A stretch of 64,000 nt of DNA from the NCBI RefSeq assembly GCF_988242995.1, contig NZ_OZ547043.1. One strand, 5' to 3'. The number at the start of each line of letters is the position of its first letter. The stretch's first letter is position 1. Positions 2,387 through 38,468 of this stretch are shown here, piece by piece. The translations under genes and the position numbers were made by a program. The notes beneath the pieces were generated by a model that saw nothing but the letters and a program-made list of their open reading frames with translations, was not told where the DNA came from and made no database searches.

Positions 2387-3259
2387 TTACAGTAACGCAA
2401 CCCGCAACGACATCTCTGAAGTTGTTGATTCCCCTGGTGCAAGCGCAATGAGATCCCCCCCTTCCGGGCGATGATGGTCATCCGGCGCATGGCTCATCGG
2501 TTCCAGACAGAAGAAATCAAACGCATATCCTTTATCAAACGCCGGGTCGGAAACAAAGATGAAATAACATGGTGCAGGTGGCGTCGTTTCCATGATGATG
2601 GCATAACCCTCCTGCGGCTGCTCGATGCGGGCCTGACCATTCCATCCGGCAAAGCCATTGTTCACCCACTGGTGCGGCAACGGCGCGAGCTGGTTGAAAT
2701 CCAGCTCTTGCGGTAGCTGCTCGCAAAACTCACCCGCCAGCCACTGCTCCCGCTCCCGCCAGTAACCGCTCGCCTGCGCCTGAATCCGCGTTTGTGGTGA
2801 CAACGGAAAATAAGGATGCCAGCCGGTACCAAATGGCAGCGTCTCTGCCCCTTGATTGGTGACAGAGAGCGTCACCGTCAGCGTATCTGCCGTTAAATGA
2901 AACGCCTGACTTACCCGATAGTGATAAACACCGCTGCGATGTTCATACACCAGACACAAGCTATCTTCGCTGCGCGAGACACATTGCCACTGCCCCAGCC
3001 AGCCGTCGCCGTGCAGATAGTGCGCATCCCACTCAACATTCGGTTGCAGTTGATACTCACGCCCCTGCCAGACAAAACGATTGCCGCTCACCCGGTTTGC
3101 AAACGGCACCAGCGGAAAACAAGAGGCATCGGTTGCCACACCGCTTTTTTTACCGGGACGTAAGAGCGGCGTCGCGTCACGCCAGAAGCCTTCGATGACG
3201 CCGCCCCGGTCAGAAACGTCCAGCTTTAGCGGCCCGTGAGATAAGGTATAGATGGTCAT
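2387..3259 (-). CDS. yphB: aldose 1-epimerase (mutarotase) family protein
   Basis: 290-aa ORF; last gene of the co-directional yphG-yphB cluster. Confidence 0.85.
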   Translation of the reverse strand: MTIYTLSHGPLKLDVSDRGGVIEGFWRDATPLLRPGKKSGVATDASCFPLVPFANRVSGNRFVWQGREYQLQPNVEWDAHYLHGDGWLGQWQCVSRSEDSLCLVYEHRSGVYHYRVSQAFHLTADTLTVTLSVTNQGAETLPFGTGWHPYFPLSPQTRIQAQASGYWREREQWLAGEFCEQLPQELDFNQLAPLPHQWVNNGFAGWNGQARIEQPQEGYAIIMETTPPAPCYFIFVSDPAFDKGYAFDFFCLEPMSHAPDDHHRPEGGDLIALAPGESTTSEMSLRVALL

Positions 3260-3270
3260 CCGCTGACTCC

Positions 3271-4332
3271 TTAATCCGGGAAGTTAATCACAACTTTCCC
3301 GCATTTACCGCTCGCCATCAGCGCATAGGCATCTCCTGCCTGTTCCAGTGAGAAGCGATGGGTAATGGCATTACGCGGCCACAGTTTCCAGTCCGTTAAA
3401 TCGTGGGCGCATTTTTCCATATGGAATAGACTGGTCACCCAGGAGCCAATAATCCGCCGTTGATGGTGCATCAGATCGGCGCTAACCTCGAACTCCACTT
3501 TTCCGGTTTCCCCGATGTAAACCACCCGTCCCCAGTCAGCAGTGGATTGCAACGCCAGTAAGCGACCTGCGGCATTACCGGAACAATCGAGCGCAACATC
3601 CGCGCCACCGTGGGTGAGTTCGGCGATAATCTGCGGCAGACCTTCGGTGGTTGCTAAATAGCCGTGATCCATCACCCCTAACTGTTTCGCCATCGCCAGA
3701 CGTTCCGGCAGCATATCAACGCCGATGATCCTTTTTGCACCGCGACCTTTCGCCAGCATCATCGCCATCATGCCGACCGGCCCCAGACCGACCACCAGCA
3801 CGTTATCGCTACCGGAAACTTCGCCGCGCAAAATCCCTTCATACGCTGTACCAACGCCGCAACTGATAAACGCACCATCTTCATAGCTCAGCGCGTCCGG
3901 CAGCAGGATCAGATCTTTTTCTTCCGCCAGCAGGTATTCAGCATGGCCGCCGTCACGCTGCCAGCCGTAAGCCGCTTTTCCTTTGCCAGTACAAGAGATA
4001 GGAAAGCCGCGGCGGCAGTTCGGGCAAAAACCACAGCCAGAAATGTGATACACCAGCACGCGGTCGCCCTCTTTAAAATGGCGGCAGCCTTGCCCCATCG
4101 CCACAATCTGCCCGCACGGTTCATGACCGTTGATAAATCCCTGGTATAACGGTTTATCGGGTGCCGCTGCCGTGGCACGGTGTTGATGATAGATATAGTG
4201 GACATCACTTCCGCAAATCCCGGAGGATTTCATTTTGATCAGTACCTGGTTAATCCCCGGCGTCGGCACCGCAACTTCCCGCAGATCGACGGTCGAATTT
4301 CCTGGTAAATAAGCTGCCAGCATCGTTTTCAT
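3271..4332 (-). CDS. yphC: zinc-dependent alcohol/polyol dehydrogenase (MDR family)
   Basis: GHEPCGQIVAMG zinc-ligand motif and GLGPVGMMA Rossmann motif; start moved to internal ATG (353 aa). Confidence 0.85.
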   Translation of the reverse strand: MKTMLAAYLPGNSTVDLREVAVPTPGINQVLIKMKSSGICGSDVHYIYHQHRATAAAPDKPLYQGFINGHEPCGQIVAMGQGCRHFKEGDRVLVYHISGCGFCPNCRRGFPISCTGKGKAAYGWQRDGGHAEYLLAEEKDLILLPDALSYEDGAFISCGVGTAYEGILRGEVSGSDNVLVVGLGPVGMMAMMLAKGRGAKRIIGVDMLPERLAMAKQLGVMDHGYLATTEGLPQIIAELTHGGADVALDCSGNAAGRLLALQSTADWGRVVYIGETGKVEFEVSADLMHHQRRIIGSWVTSLFHMEKCAHDLTDWKLWPRNAITHRFSLEQAGDAYALMASGKCGKVVINFPD

Positions 4333-14272: not shown

Positions 14273-15463
14273 ATGCTTGACGCTCAAACCATCGCTACAG
14301 TAAAAGCCACCATCCCTTTACTGGTGGAAACAGGGCCAAAGTTAACCGCCCATTTCTACGACCGTATGTTTACTCATAACCCAGAACTCAAAGAAATTTT
14401 TAACATGAGTAACCAGCGCAATGGCGATCAACGTGAAGCCCTGTTTAACGCCATTGCCGCCTACGCCAGTAATATTGAAAACCTGCCTGCGCTGCTGCCA
14501 GCGGTAGAAAAAATCGCGCAGAAGCACACCAGTTTCCAGATCAAACCGGAACAGTACAACATCGTCGGCGAACACCTGTTGGCGACGCTGGACGAAATGT
14601 TCAGCCCGGGCCAGGAAGTGCTGGACGCGTGGGGTAAAGCCTATGGCGTACTGGCTAATGTATTTATCAATCGCGAGGCGGAAATCTATAACGAAAACGC
14701 CAGCAAAGCCGGTGGCTGGGAAGGTACTCGCGATTTCCGCATTGTGGCTAAAACACCGCGCAGCGCGCTTATCACCAGCTTCGAACTGGAGCCGGTCGAC
14801 GGTGGCGCAGTGGCAGAATACCGTCCGGGGCAATATCTCGGCGTCTGGCTGAAGCCGGAAGGTTTCCCGCATCAGGAAATTCGTCAGTACTCTTTGACTC
14901 GCAAACCGGATGGCAAAGGCTATCGTATTGCGGTGAAACGCGAAGAGGGTGGGCAGGTATCCAACTGGCTGCACAATCACGCCAATGTTGGCGATGTCGT
15001 GAAACTGGTCGCTCCAGCAGGTGATTTCTTTATGGCTGTCGCAGATGACACACCAGTGACGTTAATCTCTGCCGGTGTCGGTCAAACGCCAATGCTGGCA
15101 ATGCTCGACACGCTGGCAAAAGCTGGCCACACAGCACAAGTGAACTGGTTCCATGCGGCAGAAAATGGCGATGTTCACGCCTTTGCTGATGAAGTTAAGG
15201 AACTGGGGCTGTCACTGCCGCGCTTTACCGCGCACACCTGGTATCGTCAGCCGAGCGAAGCCGATCGCGCTAAAGGTCAGTTTGATAGCGAAGGTCTGAT
15301 GGATTTGAGCAAACTGGAAGGTGCGTTCAGCGATCCGACAATGCAGTTCTATCTCTGCGGCCCGGTTGGCTTCATGCAGTTTGCCGCGAAACAGTTAGTG
15401 GATCTGGGCGTGAAGCAGGAAAACATTCATTACGAATGCTTTGGCCCGCATAAGGTGCTGTGA
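14273..15463 (+). CDS. hmp: flavohemoglobin / nitric oxide dioxygenase
   Basis: 396-aa ORF with N-terminal globin domain and C-terminal FAD/NAD reductase domain. Confidence 0.93.
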
Positions 15464-15469
15464 TTTGAT

Positions 15470-15495
15470 GTTGCCGGATGGAAACATCCGGCAAC
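15470..15495. terminator. GC-rich hairpin between convergent hmp and glnB; putative bidirectional terminator
   Basis: gttgccggatg-gaaa-catccggcaac perfect 11-bp stem; no strong U-tract on either side. Confidence 0.45.
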
Positions 15496-15507
15496 CCTTG
15501 ACGCGGT

Positions 15508-15882
<375 letters not shown>

Positions 15883-15906
15883 CTAAACGTAACACATAAC
15901 GCCAAT

Positions 15907-17241
15907 TCATTCCTTGAAATCGTTTGCATCCAGCTCGTGTCGGGAAAGCAGTTTATAAAATTCTGTCCGGTTGCGCCCCGCCATTCTCGCCGCGTGGGTG
16001 ACGTTGCCTTTGGTGATTTGCAGCAGCTTACGCAAATAGTTGAGTTCAAACTGATTACGTGCCTCAACAAAGGTTGGCAGCGCCGTATTTTCACCCTCCA
16101 GCGCCTGCTCCACCAGCGCATCACTAATCACCGGAGATGAGGTCAGCGCCACGCACTGTTCAATCACGTTGACCAACTGGCGCACATTACCCGGCCAGCT
16201 CGCGGTCATCAGGCGTTTCATCGCATCGGTAGAGAACGCGCGGACAAACGGTTTATGTCGCTCTGCCGCCTGGCGCAACAGGTGATTTGCCAGTAGCGGA
16301 ATGTCTTCTGTGCGCTCCGCCAGTGCCGGAATTTTCAGGCTGACAACGTTGAGGCGGTAATAGAGATCTTCGCGGAATTCCCCGCGCGCCATCGCTTTTG
16401 GCAGGTCGCGGTGAGTGGCGGAAATAATCCGCACGTCGATATCAATATCGCGGTTACTGCCCAGCGGGCGCACTTTACGCTCCTGCAACACGCGCAGCAG
16501 TTTGACCTGCAACGGTGCGGGCATATCGCCAATCTCATCGAGAAATAGCGTACCGCCTTCCGCCGCCTGGAATAAACCTTCGCGATTGCTGACAGCGCCA
16601 GTAAACGCGCCACGCGCATGACCAAATAGCTCCGACTCCAGCAATTGCTCGGGTAATGCGCCACAGTTAATAGCAATAAATGGCTTGCTGTTGCGCGGGC
16701 TGGCGTTGTGGATAGCCTGGGCGAAAATCTCTTTCCCGGTGCCGCTCTGGCCGTTAATCAAAACGCTAACGTCTGATTGCGCCACCAGCCGCGCCTGTTC
16801 CAGCAAACGCAGCATCAGCGGGCTGCGGGTGACAATCGCCTCGCGCCAGCGTTCATCGGTGGCTGGCGCGGATTGTTCCAGCGCATCGTCAATTGCCTGA
16901 TATAGCGCATCTTTATCGACAGGCTTGGTGAGGAAACTGAACACTCCCTGCTGTGTTGCAGCAACGGCATCGGGAATAGAACCATGTGCGGTAAGAATAA
17001 TTACCGGCATTCCCGGCTGCACTTTCTGGATTTCAGCAAACAGCTGCATACCATCCATTTCATCCATCCGCAGGTCGCTGATAACTAAATCTACTTTTTC
17101 GCGATTCAGTACCCGTAATCCTTCAGCACCACTTTCCGCCGTGACCACGCTGTAGCCTTCGCTGGTCAGGCGCAGGCCAAGCAGTTTCAGCAATCCCGGA
17201 TCGTCATCGACCAATAATAAATGCGCAGGTTTATGGCTCAT
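15907..17241 (-). CDS. glrR: sigma54-dependent two-component response regulator (NtrC family)
   Basis: Receiver domain (LLVDDD), AAA+ domain with GAFTGA motif, C-terminal HTH; start at ATG 17241 gives 444 aa. Confidence 0.88.
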
Positions 17242-17944
17242 CAGGAGTGACCTCATCGGTGGATGGCGCGGGCTTTTCACTCTCGTGTGGCGTATCCGGC
17301 GAGAAATTTCCAGCCGGTTTGCGGGTCGAGAGCTGGCGTTCAATATCAGTCAGGTTTTCCAGCTTGCGGGTGGTGAGTTCCAGTTGCTGCTGTAGAACGT
17401 GATGTTGCTGGCGCAAAGTATCCAGCTCGCTGTCGCTGGACTGCTGGAGTTTGCTGTAGCGTTGGCGCTCTTCCGCCAGTTGCAGTTGCAGCGCCTGACC
17501 GTCGCGCCAAAGTTGATACAGTGGGCGAACCTGTGCCGGGATCTCGGTACTTAACGCATCAATACGCGCGACCAGCTGGCGGCGCTCATACGGCGTAATT
17601 TTGGCATCGGCGAGCAAAATCCCTTGTTTAAAGGTATTTTGCCAGCTGCCGTCATCATATTGGCGGGCTTGCTGACGCGACTGCGCAGGCATTAAACGAT
17701 CAGCACAATCCATCACCCGCAGCCAGTAAAGCGGATTGGTTTCGGTTGATTTACCTTGCAGCGCCCAGATGTCGCTACATTCGGTAGAAAGATAGTCAGC
17801 CCGTTGATAAACCGGAATTTTTTCTTCTGCTGGCGTATCAATGGCTGGCTTATTGTGACTCTGCACGCAACCCAGCAATGCCAGACATGGCAGCCCTGCC
17901 AGCCACAGCCGTCGGGGCAATAATCGTTGAAAAATGTGTCGCAT
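17231..17944 (-). CDS. qseG: lipoprotein accessory factor of the GlrK/GlrR (QseE/QseF) system
   Basis: Signal peptide with lipobox LLGC; Gln-rich coiled-coil C-terminus; 3' end overlaps glrR start by 11 nt. Confidence 0.8.
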   Translation of the reverse strand: MRHIFQRLLPRRLWLAGLPCLALLGCVQSHNKPAIDTPAEEKIPVYQRADYLSTECSDIWALQGKSTETNPLYWLRVMDCADRLMPAQSRQQARQYDDGSWQNTFKQGILLADAKITPYERRQLVARIDALSTEIPAQVRPLYQLWRDGQALQLQLAEERQRYSKLQQSSDSELDTLRQQHHVLQQQLELTTRKLENLTDIERQLSTRKPAGNFSPDTPHESEKPAPSTDEVTPDEP

Positions 17945-18108
17945 ATTCACCAGACTTAGCGCCTTTCCCAGTGGGCGTAATTGTTACAGACAGTCTGGAC
18001 ATGGACAGCGCGGAGAAACCGGAGCGTACATGTCGTACGTGAGGATTTCGAGCACTGCCCAGGGCCAAACTGGCAAATAAAATAGCCTGATGGGATAGGC
18101 TGTTAGCA

Positions 18109-19536
18109 TTATTTCGTGTTTTTCGACGACGGCAATTCAATGCGGAAGCAAACGTCTTGCCCGCTCTCGTCGACCAGATACAGTTCCCCTTGCATACGGC
18201 GAATACAATCCCTGGCAATGCTTAATCCCAGACCGCTGCCCTTCACCGCCCCTTTTCGCTGGTGGCTTCCCTGAAAAAAGGGTTCGAAGATCATGGCGCG
18301 TTCCTCTTGCGGAATGGGTGTTCCTGTATTGATGACATCAATATAAACCCGCGCGCCATGTAAACTGCTGCGAAGGCAAATGTTACCGGATTCAGCCCCG
18401 TAGTGCACCGCATTGGAGTAAAGATTATCCAGTACGCTCATCAGCAGCATTGGCTCCGCCAGGCAAGCTGTTGCTTTGAGATCGACATCGGTATGCATCA
18501 TTTTAGCCCGCGCGGGCAGGCTATGAGCAGAAACCACCATTTCCACCAGTGGCGCTAACTCAACATTCTCCAGTTCCACCGCACTGTCCGCCTGTTTACG
18601 GTTGTAATCAAGCAGTTGTTCGATCAGTTTTTGCAAATTGCGGCTGCTGCTATCAAGAATGCTCACAACCTCTTTTTGCTCTGGCGTAAGCGGCCCGACA
18701 ACCTGGTCAGCCAGTAATTCAGTGCCCTCGCGCATACTCGCCAGCGGCGTTTTTAATTCATGAGATAAATGTCTTAAAAATTGATGACGTTGGGATTCCA
18801 GCCATGACAGGCGCTCACTTAACCAAAGAATACGTTGCCCAACCGAGCGTAACTCGCTCGGTCCACTGAACGAGACGCTATTGCCCAGAGAACGCCCTTC
18901 CCCCAGCCGGTTGATCATGCGCTCGATATTTTTCACCGGACCGATAATCATCCTCGTGAAAAGCAGTACCATCACCAGACTCACCAGAAATAGCACCAGC
19001 GATTGCCAACCAAAATATTGCCCACGTTCGGCGATTTCACGCTGAAGTTGCTGCCCACGAGAGAACACCACTGTGCGCGTGGCCTGTACCATTTCGGTAT
19101 TGGCACTGGCAAAGGCTTCAAGACGTGCGGCGGCGGCAGCATCGGGACCGCTGTTGTTACACTGAAGTTGAGCCAGATTGTTCAAATCCTGACGTAATGC
19201 CTGGTAGAGTTTATCGTCCGGCAGCACGCCTGCGTGGGCATCGAGCATTTCGCTGTAACGCTTGCGCTGGCTTTGATAAACCTTCGCAAGCGTAGGGTCG
19301 TCCAGCACGCAATACTGACGGTAGCTACGCTCCATCTCCAGCGCCGCGTTGGTCATCGCTTCACTGCGCCGGGCATCAATAAGCGTAGTGCGGTTAACCA
19401 GCGCCGCCTGATCGCTAAGCGCATTCAGGCTTTGCCAGGCTTGCCATGCCAGCACCAACAGGGGCAGCAGAATCAGCAAAAATGCCAGCATTACCAGTTG
19501 TCGTAATGAGCGGGGAAAAACGGGCCAGCGTTTCAA
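18109..19536 (-). CDS. glrK: sensor histidine kinase
   Basis: H-box LSHELKTPLASM plus ATPase G-boxes; start set at in-frame TTG (475 aa); track ORF extends to 19599. Confidence 0.82.
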   Translation of the reverse strand: MKRWPVFPRSLRQLVMLAFLLILLPLLVLAWQAWQSLNALSDQAALVNRTTLIDARRSEAMTNAALEMERSYRQYCVLDDPTLAKVYQSQRKRYSEMLDAHAGVLPDDKLYQALRQDLNNLAQLQCNNSGPDAAAAARLEAFASANTEMVQATRTVVFSRGQQLQREIAERGQYFGWQSLVLFLVSLVMVLLFTRMIIGPVKNIERMINRLGEGRSLGNSVSFSGPSELRSVGQRILWLSERLSWLESQRHQFLRHLSHELKTPLASMREGTELLADQVVGPLTPEQKEVVSILDSSSRNLQKLIEQLLDYNRKQADSAVELENVELAPLVEMVVSAHSLPARAKMMHTDVDLKATACLAEPMLLMSVLDNLYSNAVHYGAESGNICLRSSLHGARVYIDVINTGTPIPQEERAMIFEPFFQGSHQRKGAVKGSGLGLSIARDCIRRMQGELYLVDESGQDVCFRIELPSSKNTK

Positions 19537-19594
19537 GGTGTTACTCTCGTCAGACGCGAATAGCCTGATGCTAACCGAGGGGAAGTTCAGATAC

Positions 19595-19778
19595 AACAAA
19601 GCCGGGAATTACCCGGCTTTGTTATGGAATAAGGCGGTGCCTAACTCGACGTTTCGCCCGATGGTTGATATAGCTACGCTGATATCAGAAGTTGGACGGC
19701 AGGCACCTTGTTGTGCGTCATTCGAATTTTATGTAGCACGTCCCGAAGGGGCTGACATAAGTCGGTGAATGAGCCACT
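19595..19778 (-). ncRNA. glmY: GlmY small RNA (about 184 nt)
   Basis: Transcript read from 19778 begins AGUGGCUCAUUCACCGACUUAUGUCAGCCCCUUCGGG and ends in terminator caaagccggg-taat-tcccggctttg plus U-run (19597-19621); no ORF. Confidence 0.8.
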
Positions 19779-20008: not shown

Positions 20009-20056
20009 CAAAAAAGCTCCCGAAGTTGGGAGCTAATAATAGTGGTTGGTGCTTAA

Positions 20057-20087
20057 TGCCGGATGCGGCGTGAATGCCTCATCCGGC
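20057..20087. repeat. REP element downstream of purL
   Basis: tgccggatgcggcgtgaatgcctcatccggc, near-identical to the REP at 2346. Confidence 0.8.
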
Positions 20088-20110
20088 TGCAAAACCAATG
20101 GGTTGACGGC

Positions 20111-37860: not shown

Positions 37861-37892
37861 GCCTAATACCCTTATCCAGTATCCCGCTATCG

Positions 37893-38468
37893 TCAACGCC
37901 TGATAAGCGGTTGAACTTTGTTATCAATAGCTTCCCTCGCTCGGAAGATACGTGAACGCACCGTACCTACCGGACAATCCATGATAGCGGCTATCTCTTC
38001 ATAGCTCAGGCCATCCAGCTCCCGCAAGGTTATTGCCATGCGTAAATCTTCCGGGAGGGACTCAATAGTTCGGAAAACTATCTGTCTCAGTTCTTCTGAC
38101 AACATTAAGTTCTCAGGGTTCGAAATTTCTTTCAACGCGCCGCCACTTTCGAAGTTTTCAGCTTCAATGGCATCCACATCACTGGAAGGTGGACGACGCC
38201 CCTGAGCAACCAGGTAATTTTTCGCTGTATTTACAGCAATCCGATACAGCCATGTATAAAAAGCGCTATCTCCCCGGAACGAATCCAGCGCACGATAGGC
38301 TTTAATAAAAGCTTCTTGTACCACATCGGGAACATCACCCGACGGCACATAGCGGGAAACCAGACTCGCCACTTTATGCTGATAGCGCACTACCAGTAAG
38401 TTAAAGGCTTTCTGATCTCCCTTCTGGACCCGTTCAACCAGGACCTGGTCCGTTAACTGCTCGCTCAT
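37893..38468 (-). CDS. rpoE: RNA polymerase sigma-E (ECF sigma factor)
   Basis: Start at MSEQLTDQVLVERVQKGD (191 aa); track ORF extends to an in-frame GTG at 38501. Confidence 0.93.
   Translation of the reverse strand: MSEQLTDQVLVERVQKGDQKAFNLLVVRYQHKVASLVSRYVPSGDVPDVVQEAFIKAYRALDSFRGDSAFYTWLYRIAVNTAKNYLVAQGRRPPSSDVDAIEAENFESGGALKEISNPENLMLSEELRQIVFRTIESLPEDLRMAITLRELDGLSYEEIAAIMDCPVGTVRSRIFRAREAIDNKVQPLIRR

What the first reader, a model, noticed from the sequence alone, without database searches (positions are those of the whole stretch)
17231..17241. 11-nt coding overlap between qseG and glrR
The accessory lipoprotein gene ends 8 nt after the start codon of the response-regulator gene, and the kinase gene lies 164 bp upstream. 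This forces co-transcription and probably translational coupling of the regulator to the lipoprotein.
Basis: seen in the sequence. Interest (0 to 1): 0.25.

Follow-up and report, generated by a model that had tools for sequence, protein, structure and literature searches.

The report
Known qseG–glrR 11-base gene overlap
The last 11 bases of the lipoprotein gene qseG do overlap the start of the regulator gene glrR, but this is the ordinary, already annotated junction of a well-studied E. coli operon, and it arose from the commoner 4-base overlap by the loss of one base.

Summary
On the minus strand, glrR starts at ATG 17241-17239 and qseG stops at TAA 17233-17231, giving an 11-nt overlap. The kinase gene glrK/qseE ends 164 nt upstream of qseG. 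E. coli K-12 and RefSeq annotate the same coordinates, and a published table of E. coli gene pairs lists the distances as -11 and +164. The junction is nearly invariant in 5,422 complete E. coli genomes.

The -11 spacing is specific to Escherichia. In 54 of 80 other Enterobacteriaceae species the junction is the canonical ATGA (-4). A 1-nt deletion, plus loss of the first ATG, moved the qseG stop to a TAA inside glrR codons 3-4. The same kind of deletion produced -14 several times elsewhere.

glrR has its own conserved Shine-Dalgarno sequence (GAGGU), the strongest anti-SD binding site anywhere in qseG. No RNA structure hides it. A published strain that separates the two genes keeps the system functional.

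Co-transcription is therefore established, from the literature. Strict translational coupling is untested and probably only partial. The finding is already known and of low interest.

One side finding: the 164-nt spacer is a ~17-nt ancestral spacer plus a ~147-bp MITE-like hairpin insertion.

The parts
17231..17241 (-). 11-nt region shared by the 3' end of qseG (..G AT GAG CCA TAA) and the 5' end of glrR (ATG AGC CAT AA)
   Evidence: Read directly from the sequence. Identical to the RefSeq and K-12 annotation. Listed as -11 in PMC10666635 Table S2.
17239..17241 (-). glrR start codon ATG
   Evidence: It aligns to within one codon of the start in all 80 species loci. The NCBIfam GlrR equivalog aligns residues 1-444 to profile positions 2-445. 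The Pfam receiver domain begins at residue 9.
17231..17233 (-). qseG stop codon TAA, made from the T of glrR codon 3 (CAT) and the first two A's of codon 4 (AAA)
   Evidence: The same embedded TAA (CGT AAA) serves as the qseG stop in the -14 lineages.
17250..17254 (-). Shine-Dalgarno GAGGU for glrR, 8 nt upstream of the ATG, lying inside the qseG codons for Glu-Val
   Evidence: Duplex energy with the anti-SD is -6.3 kcal/mol, and none of 681 other 8-mers in qseG binds as well. An SD-like core is present 4-10 nt upstream of the start in all 82 loci.
17254..17256 (-). Alternative in-frame ATG 15 nt upstream of the annotated glrR start (considered unlikely)
   Evidence: It overlaps the SD itself and has no SD of its own. 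It is in frame only in Escherichia, as a result of the 1-nt deletion.
15907..17241 (-). glrR (qseF/yfhA): sigma-54-dependent response regulator, 444 aa
   Evidence: NCBIfam NF011695 scores 982 bits against a cutoff of 763. Pfam finds Response_reg, Sigma54_activat and AAA_lid_14.
17231..17944 (-). qseG (yfhG): outer-membrane lipoprotein, 237 aa; residues 218-237 form a non-conserved tail
   Evidence: NCBIfam NF007997 scores 355 bits against a cutoff of 234. Pfam PF13942 covers residues 45-217 only. The tail is variable in alignment A1.
17961..18102 (-). MITE-like insertion (~142 nt plus a 5-nt GCTAA duplication) that makes up most of the 164-nt glrK-qseG spacer
   Evidence: It is absent from E. 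albertii. It has terminal inverted repeats AGCCTATCCCA/TGGGAAAGGC, and copies occur at other intergenic sites in Raoultella and Citrobacter. The median is 5 places per E. coli genome. The RNA fold is -60.6 kcal/mol, z = -4.5.
18109..19536 (-). glrK (qseE/yfhK) sensor kinase gene, 475 aa, TTG start
   Evidence: HisKA and HATPase_c domains.
19631..19778 (-). glmY sRNA gene, immediately upstream of the operon and a direct target of GlrR
   Evidence: Rfam RF00128 scores 147 bits, E = 6e-34. The synteny is described in PMC3045617.
15508..15846 (-). glnB, 60 nt downstream of glrR

Best explanation
This is the normal qseG-glrR junction of the known glrK(qseE)-qseG-glrR(qseF) operon of Escherichia. 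The three genes are made as one mRNA from a promoter upstream of glrK. The 11-nt overlap is a derived, genus-specific state. The ancestral enterobacterial junction is ..CC ATG A.., a 4-nt overlap of stop and start. In the Escherichia lineage a 1-nt deletion in the qseG tail, together with loss of the first ATG (now CTG or AAA), took the TGA out of frame. qseG now runs three codons further (Asp-Glu-Pro) to the next stop, a TAA formed by glrR codons 3-4 (CAT AAA), and glrR starts one codon later. glrR is translated mainly from its own Shine-Dalgarno sequence (GAGGU, 8 nt upstream, inside qseG). Ribosomes finishing qseG probably add some initiation: at termination the P site sits only 5 nt downstream of the glrR AUG and the SD is within reach, so a short back-step would suffice. 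Shown here: the geometry, its conservation, the indel origin, the conserved SD and the lack of a sequestering structure. Taken from the literature: co-transcription. Inferred: the mix of independent and coupled initiation, and that the change from -4 to -11 was roughly neutral.
For: Geometry and annotation. Population conservation.

Phylogeny of the junction in the 80 species loci: -4 in 54, -14 in 15, -11 in 5 (all Escherichia: cryptic clades, E. whittamii, E. albertii), -1 in 4, -8 in 1, and a 42-nt gap in 1. More distant Enterobacterales have -14, +2, +1 and +22.

The alignment shows the 1-nt gap in Escherichia relative to Citrobacter and Salmonella (gaggtaacgccATGATGagcc versus gaggtcac-tcctgATGagcc). 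It shows an independent 1-nt deletion turning -4 into -14 within Enterobacter (E. quasihormaechei versus E. cloacae).

The overlapped part of QseG lies outside its conserved domain (PF13942 covers residues 45-217) and the tail is variable.

SD: the site is the strongest anti-SD binder in qseG (0 of 681 8-mers as good). It falls in the top 5% in 82 of 82 loci and the top 2% in 72 of 82. The RNA around the junction folds no better than shuffles (z = 0.04).

[quoted passage not shown] Co-transcription is also stated in PMC8745638. GlrR is detected and GlrK undetected in absolute proteomics.

Primers BG1305/BG1306 show that the qseG-3xFLAG strain places the tag, a stop and an FRT scar between qseG and the qseF ATG and supplies an AGGAGG SD. 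The paper reports that QseG-3xFLAG kept full function in activating glmY.
Against: There is no direct measurement of glrR translation with and without qseG translation, so the share of coupled versus independent initiation is a guess. The protein copy numbers are very low and reflect stability as well as synthesis. The FLAG-tag strain replaces the native SD with a strong synthetic one, so it shows the overlap is dispensable, not that coupling is absent in the wild type. No ribosome-profiling or N-terminal data were found for the glrR start. The retention of a tight junction (-14 to +22) across the whole order could reflect selection for coupling stronger than I assume.
Confidence: 0.6

Rival explanations
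1. Strict translational coupling. glrR is translated essentially only by ribosomes that have just terminated on qseG, so regulator output is locked to lipoprotein output.
For: The start codon lies inside the upstream gene, and a terminating ribosome would have to move back only 5 nt. The junction is kept tight (-14 to +22) throughout Enterobacterales. Short overlaps are the classic signature of termination-reinitiation (PMC10666635 and PMC12548453).
Against: A strong SD is conserved, which strict reinitiation does not need. No occluding structure is present. QseF is reported at about three times the QseG level. -11 is outside the -8 to +10 window used as predictive of termination-reinitiation, and coupling reportedly declines with longer overlaps. 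The overlap length has changed repeatedly in evolution. The uncoupled FLAG-tag strain is functional.
Confidence: 0.15
2. Fully independent expression. The overlap is a neutral by-product of a 1-nt deletion, glrR is initiated only de novo at its SD, and there may be an additional promoter inside qseG. qseG translation has no effect on glrR.
For: The indel origin and recurrent changes in overlap length. The strong SD. The open RNA structure. QseF exceeds QseG in abundance.
Against: No sigma-70-like promoter match lies on the minus strand within qseG (this is a weak test). Ribosomes terminating 8 nt past the AUG with an SD in range are expected to reinitiate at some rate (established knowledge, reviewed in PMC12548453). 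No species among the 84 examined has a long spacer, apart from one early-stop variant.
Confidence: 0.2
3. glrR actually starts at the in-frame ATG 15 nt upstream (17256-17254), giving MRSLLMSHK... and a 26-nt overlap.
For: The ATG is in frame and is present in all Escherichia loci.
Against: It has no SD upstream and overlaps the SD used by the annotated start. It is in frame only in Escherichia. Orthologues in 74 other species start at or one codon before the annotated position. The GlrR equivalog profile aligns from residue 1.
Confidence: 0.04

Closest known systems
qseG-glrR junction of E. coli K-12 MG1655 (b2555/b2554)
   Same: The geometry is identical: an 11-nt overlap, a 164-nt glrK-qseG spacer and a 60-nt glrR-glnB spacer. 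Gene order is the same, with glmY upstream.
   Different: Only point differences. QseG here is 97% identical to the main E. coli cluster, and the junction differs from most genomes by one base.
ATGA (-4) qseG-glrR junction of Salmonella, Citrobacter, Enterobacter, Lelliottia, Kosakonia and others
   Same: Same operon, same SD position inside the qseG tail, same GlrR N-terminus (M[14 protein letters not shown]).
   Different: In those species stop and start share ATGA, and GlrR is one codon longer. Escherichia lacks one base and the first ATG, so the qseG stop lies 7 nt further downstream.
-14 qseG-glrR junction of Klebsiella, Raoultella, Enterobacter cloacae, Superficieibacter and Ca. Fukatsuia
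   Same: The same reading-frame relation and the same stop, a TAA embedded in the Arg/His-Lys codons of glrR. Each arose by a 1-nt deletion in the qseG tail.
   Different: They keep the upstream ATG, so the overlap is 14 nt rather than 11. These are independent events in separate lineages.
Classical translationally coupled pairs with -4/-1 spacing (termination-reinitiation; Huber et al. 2019/2023; review PMC12548453)
   Same: A co-directional pair on one mRNA, with the downstream start codon inside the ribosome footprint at termination.
   Different: The overlap is longer than the -8 to +10 window those authors use as predictive. The proteins are not subunits of a stoichiometric complex (the pair is marked 'CMPLX not' in their table). 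The dependence of glrR on qseG translation has never been measured.

Membership tests
qseEGF / glrK-qseG-glrR operon of Enterobacterales | Response regulator orthologous to GlrR/QseF (receiver, sigma-54 AAA+ and HTH domains) | tested here: met
   NCBIfam equivalog NF011695 scores 982 bits against a cutoff of 763. Pfam finds Response_reg 9-117, Sigma54_activat 136-302 and AAA_lid_14.
qseEGF / glrK-qseG-glrR operon of Enterobacterales | QseG/YfhG lipoprotein gene between the kinase and regulator genes | tested here: met
   NF007997 scores 355 bits against a cutoff of 234, and PF13942 is found. A lipobox LLGC is visible at residues 23-26.
qseEGF / glrK-qseG-glrR operon of Enterobacterales | Sensor histidine kinase GlrK/QseE upstream | tested here: met
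   HisKA and HATPase_c domains. The gene is syntenic and annotated as qseE in genomes 99% identical over the locus. No NCBIfam equivalog for GlrK passed its cutoff, so the assignment rests on synteny and annotation.
qseEGF / glrK-qseG-glrR operon of Enterobacterales | glmY sRNA gene immediately upstream and glnB downstream | tested here: met
   Rfam RF00128 scores 147 bits at 19631-19778. glnB is at 15508-15846. The synteny is described in PMC3045617.
qseEGF / glrK-qseG-glrR operon of Enterobacterales | The three genes are transcribed as one mRNA | not testable with these tools
   Taken from the literature: PMC6075780 (promoter 25 bp upstream of qseE) and PMC8745638 (co-transcription, citing Reading et al.). 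The primary papers are not held.
Translationally coupled overlapping gene pair (termination-reinitiation) | Stop and start within the short window (-8 to about +10 nt) used as predictive of coupling | tested here: not met
   The distance is -11. The window is defined in PMC10666635. Most other genera, at -4, do meet it.
Translationally coupled overlapping gene pair (termination-reinitiation) | Downstream translation depends on translation of the upstream gene | not testable with these tools
   This needs premature-stop reporter constructs. The indirect evidence (QseF exceeding QseG, the functional uncoupled FLAG strain) argues against strict dependence.
Translationally coupled pair, RNA-unfolding type | The downstream ribosome-binding site is sequestered in a stable structure that upstream translation opens | tested here: not met
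   A 116-nt window around the junction has an MFE of -27.2 kcal/mol against a shuffle mean of -27.4, z = 0.04.
MITE (for the glrK-qseG spacer only) | Terminal inverted repeats, target-site duplication, multiple dispersed intergenic copies and an empty site in a relative | tested here: met
   Terminal repeats AGCCTATCCCA/TGGGAAAGGC flanked by GCTAA on both sides. The site is empty in E. albertii. Copies occur elsewhere in Raoultella and Citrobacter loci. The median is 5 places per E. coli genome. The named family was not identified: it is not RU-2 or RU-3 and has no Rfam family.

The most novel reading that the evidence does not exclude
In the Escherichia coli lineage both intercistronic junctions of this three-gene signalling operon were remodelled. 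A MITE hairpin was inserted between kinase and lipoprotein, breaking what looks like an ancestral -1/+1 junction and leaving a 41-codon relic ORF attached to the glrK stop. The lipoprotein-regulator junction shifted from -4 to -11. Together these changes could have reset the QseE:QseG:QseF synthesis ratios in a lineage-specific way. That would parallel the partial loss of GlrR/sigma-54 control of glmZ in Escherichia reported by Göpel et al. 2011.
Probability: 0.1. Interest if true: 0.35.

Novelty: already known. Interest (0 to 1): 0.1.

Why it matters
It matters little in itself. The overlap is part of the standard annotation of one of the best-studied genomes and already appears in a published table of E. 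coli gene-pair distances. Its practical value is for people who engineer this locus. Any deletion or C-terminal tag of qseG touches the first 11 nt and the Shine-Dalgarno sequence of glrR, so constructs must restore a ribosome-binding site, as the published FLAG-tag design does. The comparative result is a tidy small example of how uncommon overlap lengths arise and persist: the ancestral -4 was converted to -11 or -14 by single-base deletions several times independently, always ending at the same embedded TAA. It does not open a new question.

Tried and rejected
(1) I looked for an experimentally mapped glrR start. The supplements of the tetracycline-inhibited ribosome profiling paper contain no glrR, yfhA or qseG entry. 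The retapamulin preprint has no held supplements.

(2) I looked for synthesis-rate data. My remembered id for the Li et al. 2014 paper was not held. Mori et al. 2021 lists GlrR (detected) and GlrK (zero), but no qseG entry was found in the held, truncated files.

(3) The primary papers on qseEGF co-transcription (Reading et al.) are not held, so I relied on secondary statements.

(4) I tested for a structure sequestering the glrR ribosome-binding site and found none.

(5) I scanned for an internal promoter in qseG. No minus-strand match was found, and the scan as a whole was at shuffle level.

(6) I tried to name the MITE. It is not Delihas RU-2/YPAL or RU-3. It has no Rfam family, only a sub-threshold sX9 match. 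It is not annotated in MG1655. My recollection that it might be the 'RSA' repeat of the K-12 genome paper is untested.

(7) I tried to get a genome-wide count of -11 overlaps from Huber et al. The table I opened covered only the +9 to +12 pairs. I used their text and the local 50-kb neighbourhood instead.

(8) I rejected a downstream start (TTG at codon 10), because it would remove the first strand of the receiver domain.

Full report
**1. What is in the sequence**

The locus lies on the minus strand. Read 5'->3', the junction is ...GAT GAG GTC ACT CCT GAT GAG CCA TAA in the qseG frame. In the glrR frame it is ATG AGC CAT AAA CCT GCG CAT TTA TTA TTG GTC GAT GAC GAT, which translates to [14 protein letters not shown].

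- The glrR ATG is at 17241-17239 and the qseG TAA at 17233-17231.
- glrK (qseE) runs from a TTG at 19536 to a TAA at 18111-18109.
- qseG begins at ATG 17944, which leaves 164 nt between the two genes.
- glmY lies just upstream at 19631-19778 (Rfam RF00128, 147 bits). glnB lies 60 nt downstream of glrR.

**2. It is the annotated state**

RefSeq/PGAP annotation of the closest genome gives qseG 2057-2770, glrR 2760-4094 and qseE ending at 1892. K-12 MG1655 gives glrR 2687469-2688803, qseG 2688793-2689506 and glrK from 2689671. Supplementary Table S2 of Huber et al. 2023 (PMC10666635) lists the pairs as qseG-glrR -11, glrK-qseG +164 and glrR-glnB +60.

The locus is present in 5,425 of 5,426 complete E. 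coli genomes. The 80-nt junction is found at 95% identity or more in all but one of the 5,422 genomes that match it. The exception is an annotated frameshifted qseG that still shows the 11-nt overlap.

Protein identities are secure:
- GlrR matches the NCBIfam equivalog NF011695 at 982 bits (cutoff 763).
- QseG matches NF007997 at 355 bits (cutoff 234).
- GlrK has HisKA and HATPase_c domains.

**3. Is the start codon right?**

The Pfam receiver domain begins at residue 9. The GlrR equivalog profile aligns residues 1-444 to positions 2-445.

In 80 species-level loci the start is an ATG at this codon or one codon upstream. In most of them no other in-frame start lies nearby.

In Escherichia there is a second in-frame ATG 15 nt upstream (17256-17254). 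It overlaps the Shine-Dalgarno sequence, has none of its own, and is in frame only in this genus. If it were used, the overlap would be 26 nt rather than zero.

The only downstream candidate is the TTG at codon 10, which would remove the first strand of the receiver domain. The overlap therefore holds whichever start is chosen. I found no direct start-site mapping.

**4. Where the 11 nt came from**

I collected QseG homologues and aligned 19 of them. That alignment was used to fetch 80 loci, one per species, from bacterial genomes, and I classified the junction in each.

| Junction | Number of species | Lineages |
|---|---|---|
| -4 (..CC ATG A..) | 54 | Salmonella, most Citrobacter, Enterobacter, Lelliottia, Kosakonia, Leclercia and others |
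| -14 | 15 | Klebsiella, Raoultella, part of the E. cloacae complex, Superficieibacter |
| -11 | 5 | all Escherichia: two cryptic-clade strains, E. whittamii, E. albertii, and one strain labelled E. coli |
| -1 (TAATG) | 4 | C. amalonaticus, Yokenella |
| -8 | 1 | Kluyvera intermedia |
| 42-nt gap (early qseG stop) | 1 | Leclercia adecarboxylata |

Four more distant Enterobacterales gave -14, +2, +1 and +22. These were Ca. Fukatsuia, Izhakiella and two metagenomic contigs that carry nadE downstream of glrR.

The nucleotide alignment shows Escherichia with a 1-nt gap relative to Citrobacter and Salmonella (gaggtaacgccATGATGagcc versus gaggtcac-tcctgATGagcc). The first ATG has been replaced by CTG, or by AAA in E. 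albertii.

The deletion takes the TGA out of the qseG frame. The next stop in the new frame is the TAA formed by glrR codons CAT AAA. QseG gains Asp-Glu-Pro, and GlrR loses one N-terminal residue.

The same single-base deletion, ending at the same embedded TAA (CGT AAA), converts -4 into -14 within Enterobacter (E. quasihormaechei versus E. cloacae). It must also have happened separately in Klebsiella/Raoultella and other lineages. The affected part of QseG lies outside its conserved domain (PF13942 covers residues 45-217) and is variable in length and sequence.

What is conserved, then, is close apposition of the two genes, not a particular overlap length.

**5. How glrR is probably translated**

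A Shine-Dalgarno core lies 4-10 nt upstream of the start in all 82 sequences. In the window it is GAGGU at 17254-17250, 8 nt from the ATG. Its predicted pairing with the anti-SD is -6.3 kcal/mol, and none of the 681 other 8-mers of qseG binds as well. Across loci, the median fraction of qseG 8-mers that bind as well is 0.3%, and all 82 loci are at or below 5%.

This SD is held constant at the nucleotide level inside an otherwise variable protein tail. That indicates selection for SD-dependent initiation.

The RNA around the junction is no more structured than shuffled controls (z = 0.04), so there is no sign of a ribosome-binding site that must be opened by upstream translation.

Geometrically, a ribosome terminating at the TAA has its P site on CCA (17236-17234), 5 nt downstream of the AUG, with the SD about 13 nt behind. 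A short back-step to reinitiate is plausible. This step is inference.

The literature bears on this as follows:
- -4, -1 and -8 are the enriched spacings.
- Huber et al. use -8 to +10 as the window predictive of termination-reinitiation.
- In their 1,695-species survey, all distances outside -8 to +6 are at least an order of magnitude rarer than -4.
- Tian and Salis found that coupling falls steadily as the overlap grows from -4 to -25.

Experimental hints from Göpel and Görke 2018 (PMC6075780):
- 11 QseG and 36 QseF molecules per cell are quoted, with QseE undetectable. Mori et al. 2021 likewise detect GlrR but not GlrK.
- Their chromosomal qseG-3xFLAG allele was built with primers BG1305/BG1306. 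It inserts the tag, a stop and an FRT scar between qseG codon 237 and the qseF ATG, and places AGGAGG 8 nt upstream of that ATG. The paper reports that QseG-3xFLAG kept full function in activating glmY.

The native overlap is therefore dispensable when an SD is supplied.

My best reading is SD-driven initiation with a partial contribution from terminating ribosomes. Strict coupling is unlikely but has not been excluded.

**6. Co-transcription**

The overlap leaves no room for a terminator between qseG and glrR. [quoted passage not shown] The consensus scan found no promoter-like site on the minus strand inside qseG, but the scan as a whole was at shuffle level.

'Forces co-transcription' is thus correct in the sense that qseG transcripts must enter glrR. 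It does not exclude additional starts.

**7. The 164-nt spacer (side finding)**

Most species have 13-35 nt between the glrK stop and the codon aligned with E. coli QseG Met1. E. albertii has 17 nt (...GAAATAATGCTAAGTCTGGTGAATATG). E. coli and the closest clades carry about 147 extra bases at 17961-18102.

The insertion has these features:
- It is flanked by GCTAA on both sides and has terminal inverted repeats AGCCTATCCCA/TGGGAAAGGC.
- Related copies lie at other places in the Raoultella ornithinolytica and Citrobacter sp. 18056 loci. A reversed, larger copy lies in the same spacer of C. amalonaticus.
- E. coli genomes hold a median of 5 places similar to the spacer.
- As RNA the spacer folds into a long hairpin (-60.6 kcal/mol, z = -4.5). 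Its 5' end resembles a weak intrinsic terminator.
- It matches no Rfam family and is not RU-2 or RU-3.

In E. albertii the ATG overlapping the glrK stop (TAATG) is in frame with qseG. In the window the same ATG (18109-18107) now opens a 41-codon ORF that runs into the element. This suggests, without proving, that the ancestral glrK-qseG junction was also tight and that the insertion broke it.

**8. Verdict**

Co-transcription holds and is already known. Translational coupling is possible but probably partial, and is untested.
- The feature is already known. It appears in the K-12 annotation and in a published table, and the operon is well characterised.
- The new content is minor: the Escherichia-specific origin by a 1-nt deletion, the recurrent -14 parallels, and the MITE in the upstream spacer.
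- Interest is low.

Noticed in passing
window 17961-18102 (minus strand), flanked by GCTAA at 18107-18103 and 17960-17956: The 164-nt glrK-qseG spacer is an ancestral ~17-nt spacer plus a ~147-bp MITE-like insertion. It has terminal inverted repeats AGCCTATCCCA/TGGGAAAGGC and a 5-nt duplication, and the site is empty in E. albertii. E. coli genomes hold a median of 5 similar places. The RNA hairpin is -60.6 kcal/mol (z = -4.5), and the 5' end looks like a weak terminator. The family is not identified: no Rfam hit, not RU-2 or RU-3, and not annotated in MG1655.
   Followed up: partly
window 17983-18109 (minus strand): An ATG overlapping the glrK stop (TAATG) opens a 41-codon ORF (MLTAYPIRLFYLPVWPWAVLEILTYDMYAPVSPRCPCPDCL) that runs into the MITE. 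In E. albertii the same ATG is in frame with qseG (MLSLVNMRH...). It may be the relic of an ancestral qseG start that was coupled to glrK.
   Followed up: partly
L040 5077-5226 (Raoultella ornithinolytica), L063 1397-1547 (Citrobacter sp. 18056), L007 ~2783-2945 (C. amalonaticus): Copies of the same MITE family lie elsewhere in the loci fetched around this operon in other genera. By position, the Raoultella copy is downstream of glrR and the Citrobacter sp. 18056 copy is upstream of glrK. The C. amalonaticus copy is in the same glrK-qseG spacer but reversed and larger. This may be more insertions than expected for so little sequence; I made only a rough estimate.
   Followed up: no
window 19534-19536 (minus strand): glrK/qseE starts with TTG. 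This fits the very low or undetectable kinase level reported in proteomics (PMC6075780; Mori et al. 2021).
   Followed up: partly
window ~37876-38451 (minus strand, inferred from collinearity with NZ_CP027437.1) and 19631-19778: Both reported direct targets of GlrR lie in this same 64-kb window as glrR itself: glmY, and rpoE with its leader rseD. The rpoE position was inferred from the annotated relative and was not read in the window.
   Followed up: no
L006 (NZ_JAATUR010000003.1, labelled E. coli strain SCPM-O-B-8794): This strain lacks the MITE (17-nt spacer), as E. albertii does, and its QseG is only 91% identical to the window's. It may be mislabelled or belong to a divergent clade.
   Followed up: no
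L033 (Leclercia adecarboxylata NCTC13032): qseG ends early (tail ...DAPKSADIPR*), leaving a 42-nt gap before glrR. It is the only locus of 80 without a tight junction. This could be a frameshift or a sequencing error.
   Followed up: no
window 15400-19700: Over this 4.3-kb stretch, only one of the 5,429 matching E. coli records (from 5,425 genomes) reaches 99% identity or more; the rest lie mostly at 95-99%. QseG is 97% identical to the main E. coli cluster. The window therefore comes from an E. coli lineage with a fairly uncommon allele of this locus.
   Followed up: no
window 20051-20088 (minus strand): A sub-threshold Rfam match to naRNA4, a REP-derived nucleoid-associated RNA (27.7 bits against a gathering score of 59.5), lies upstream of glmY. 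It is probably a REP-like element.
   Followed up: no
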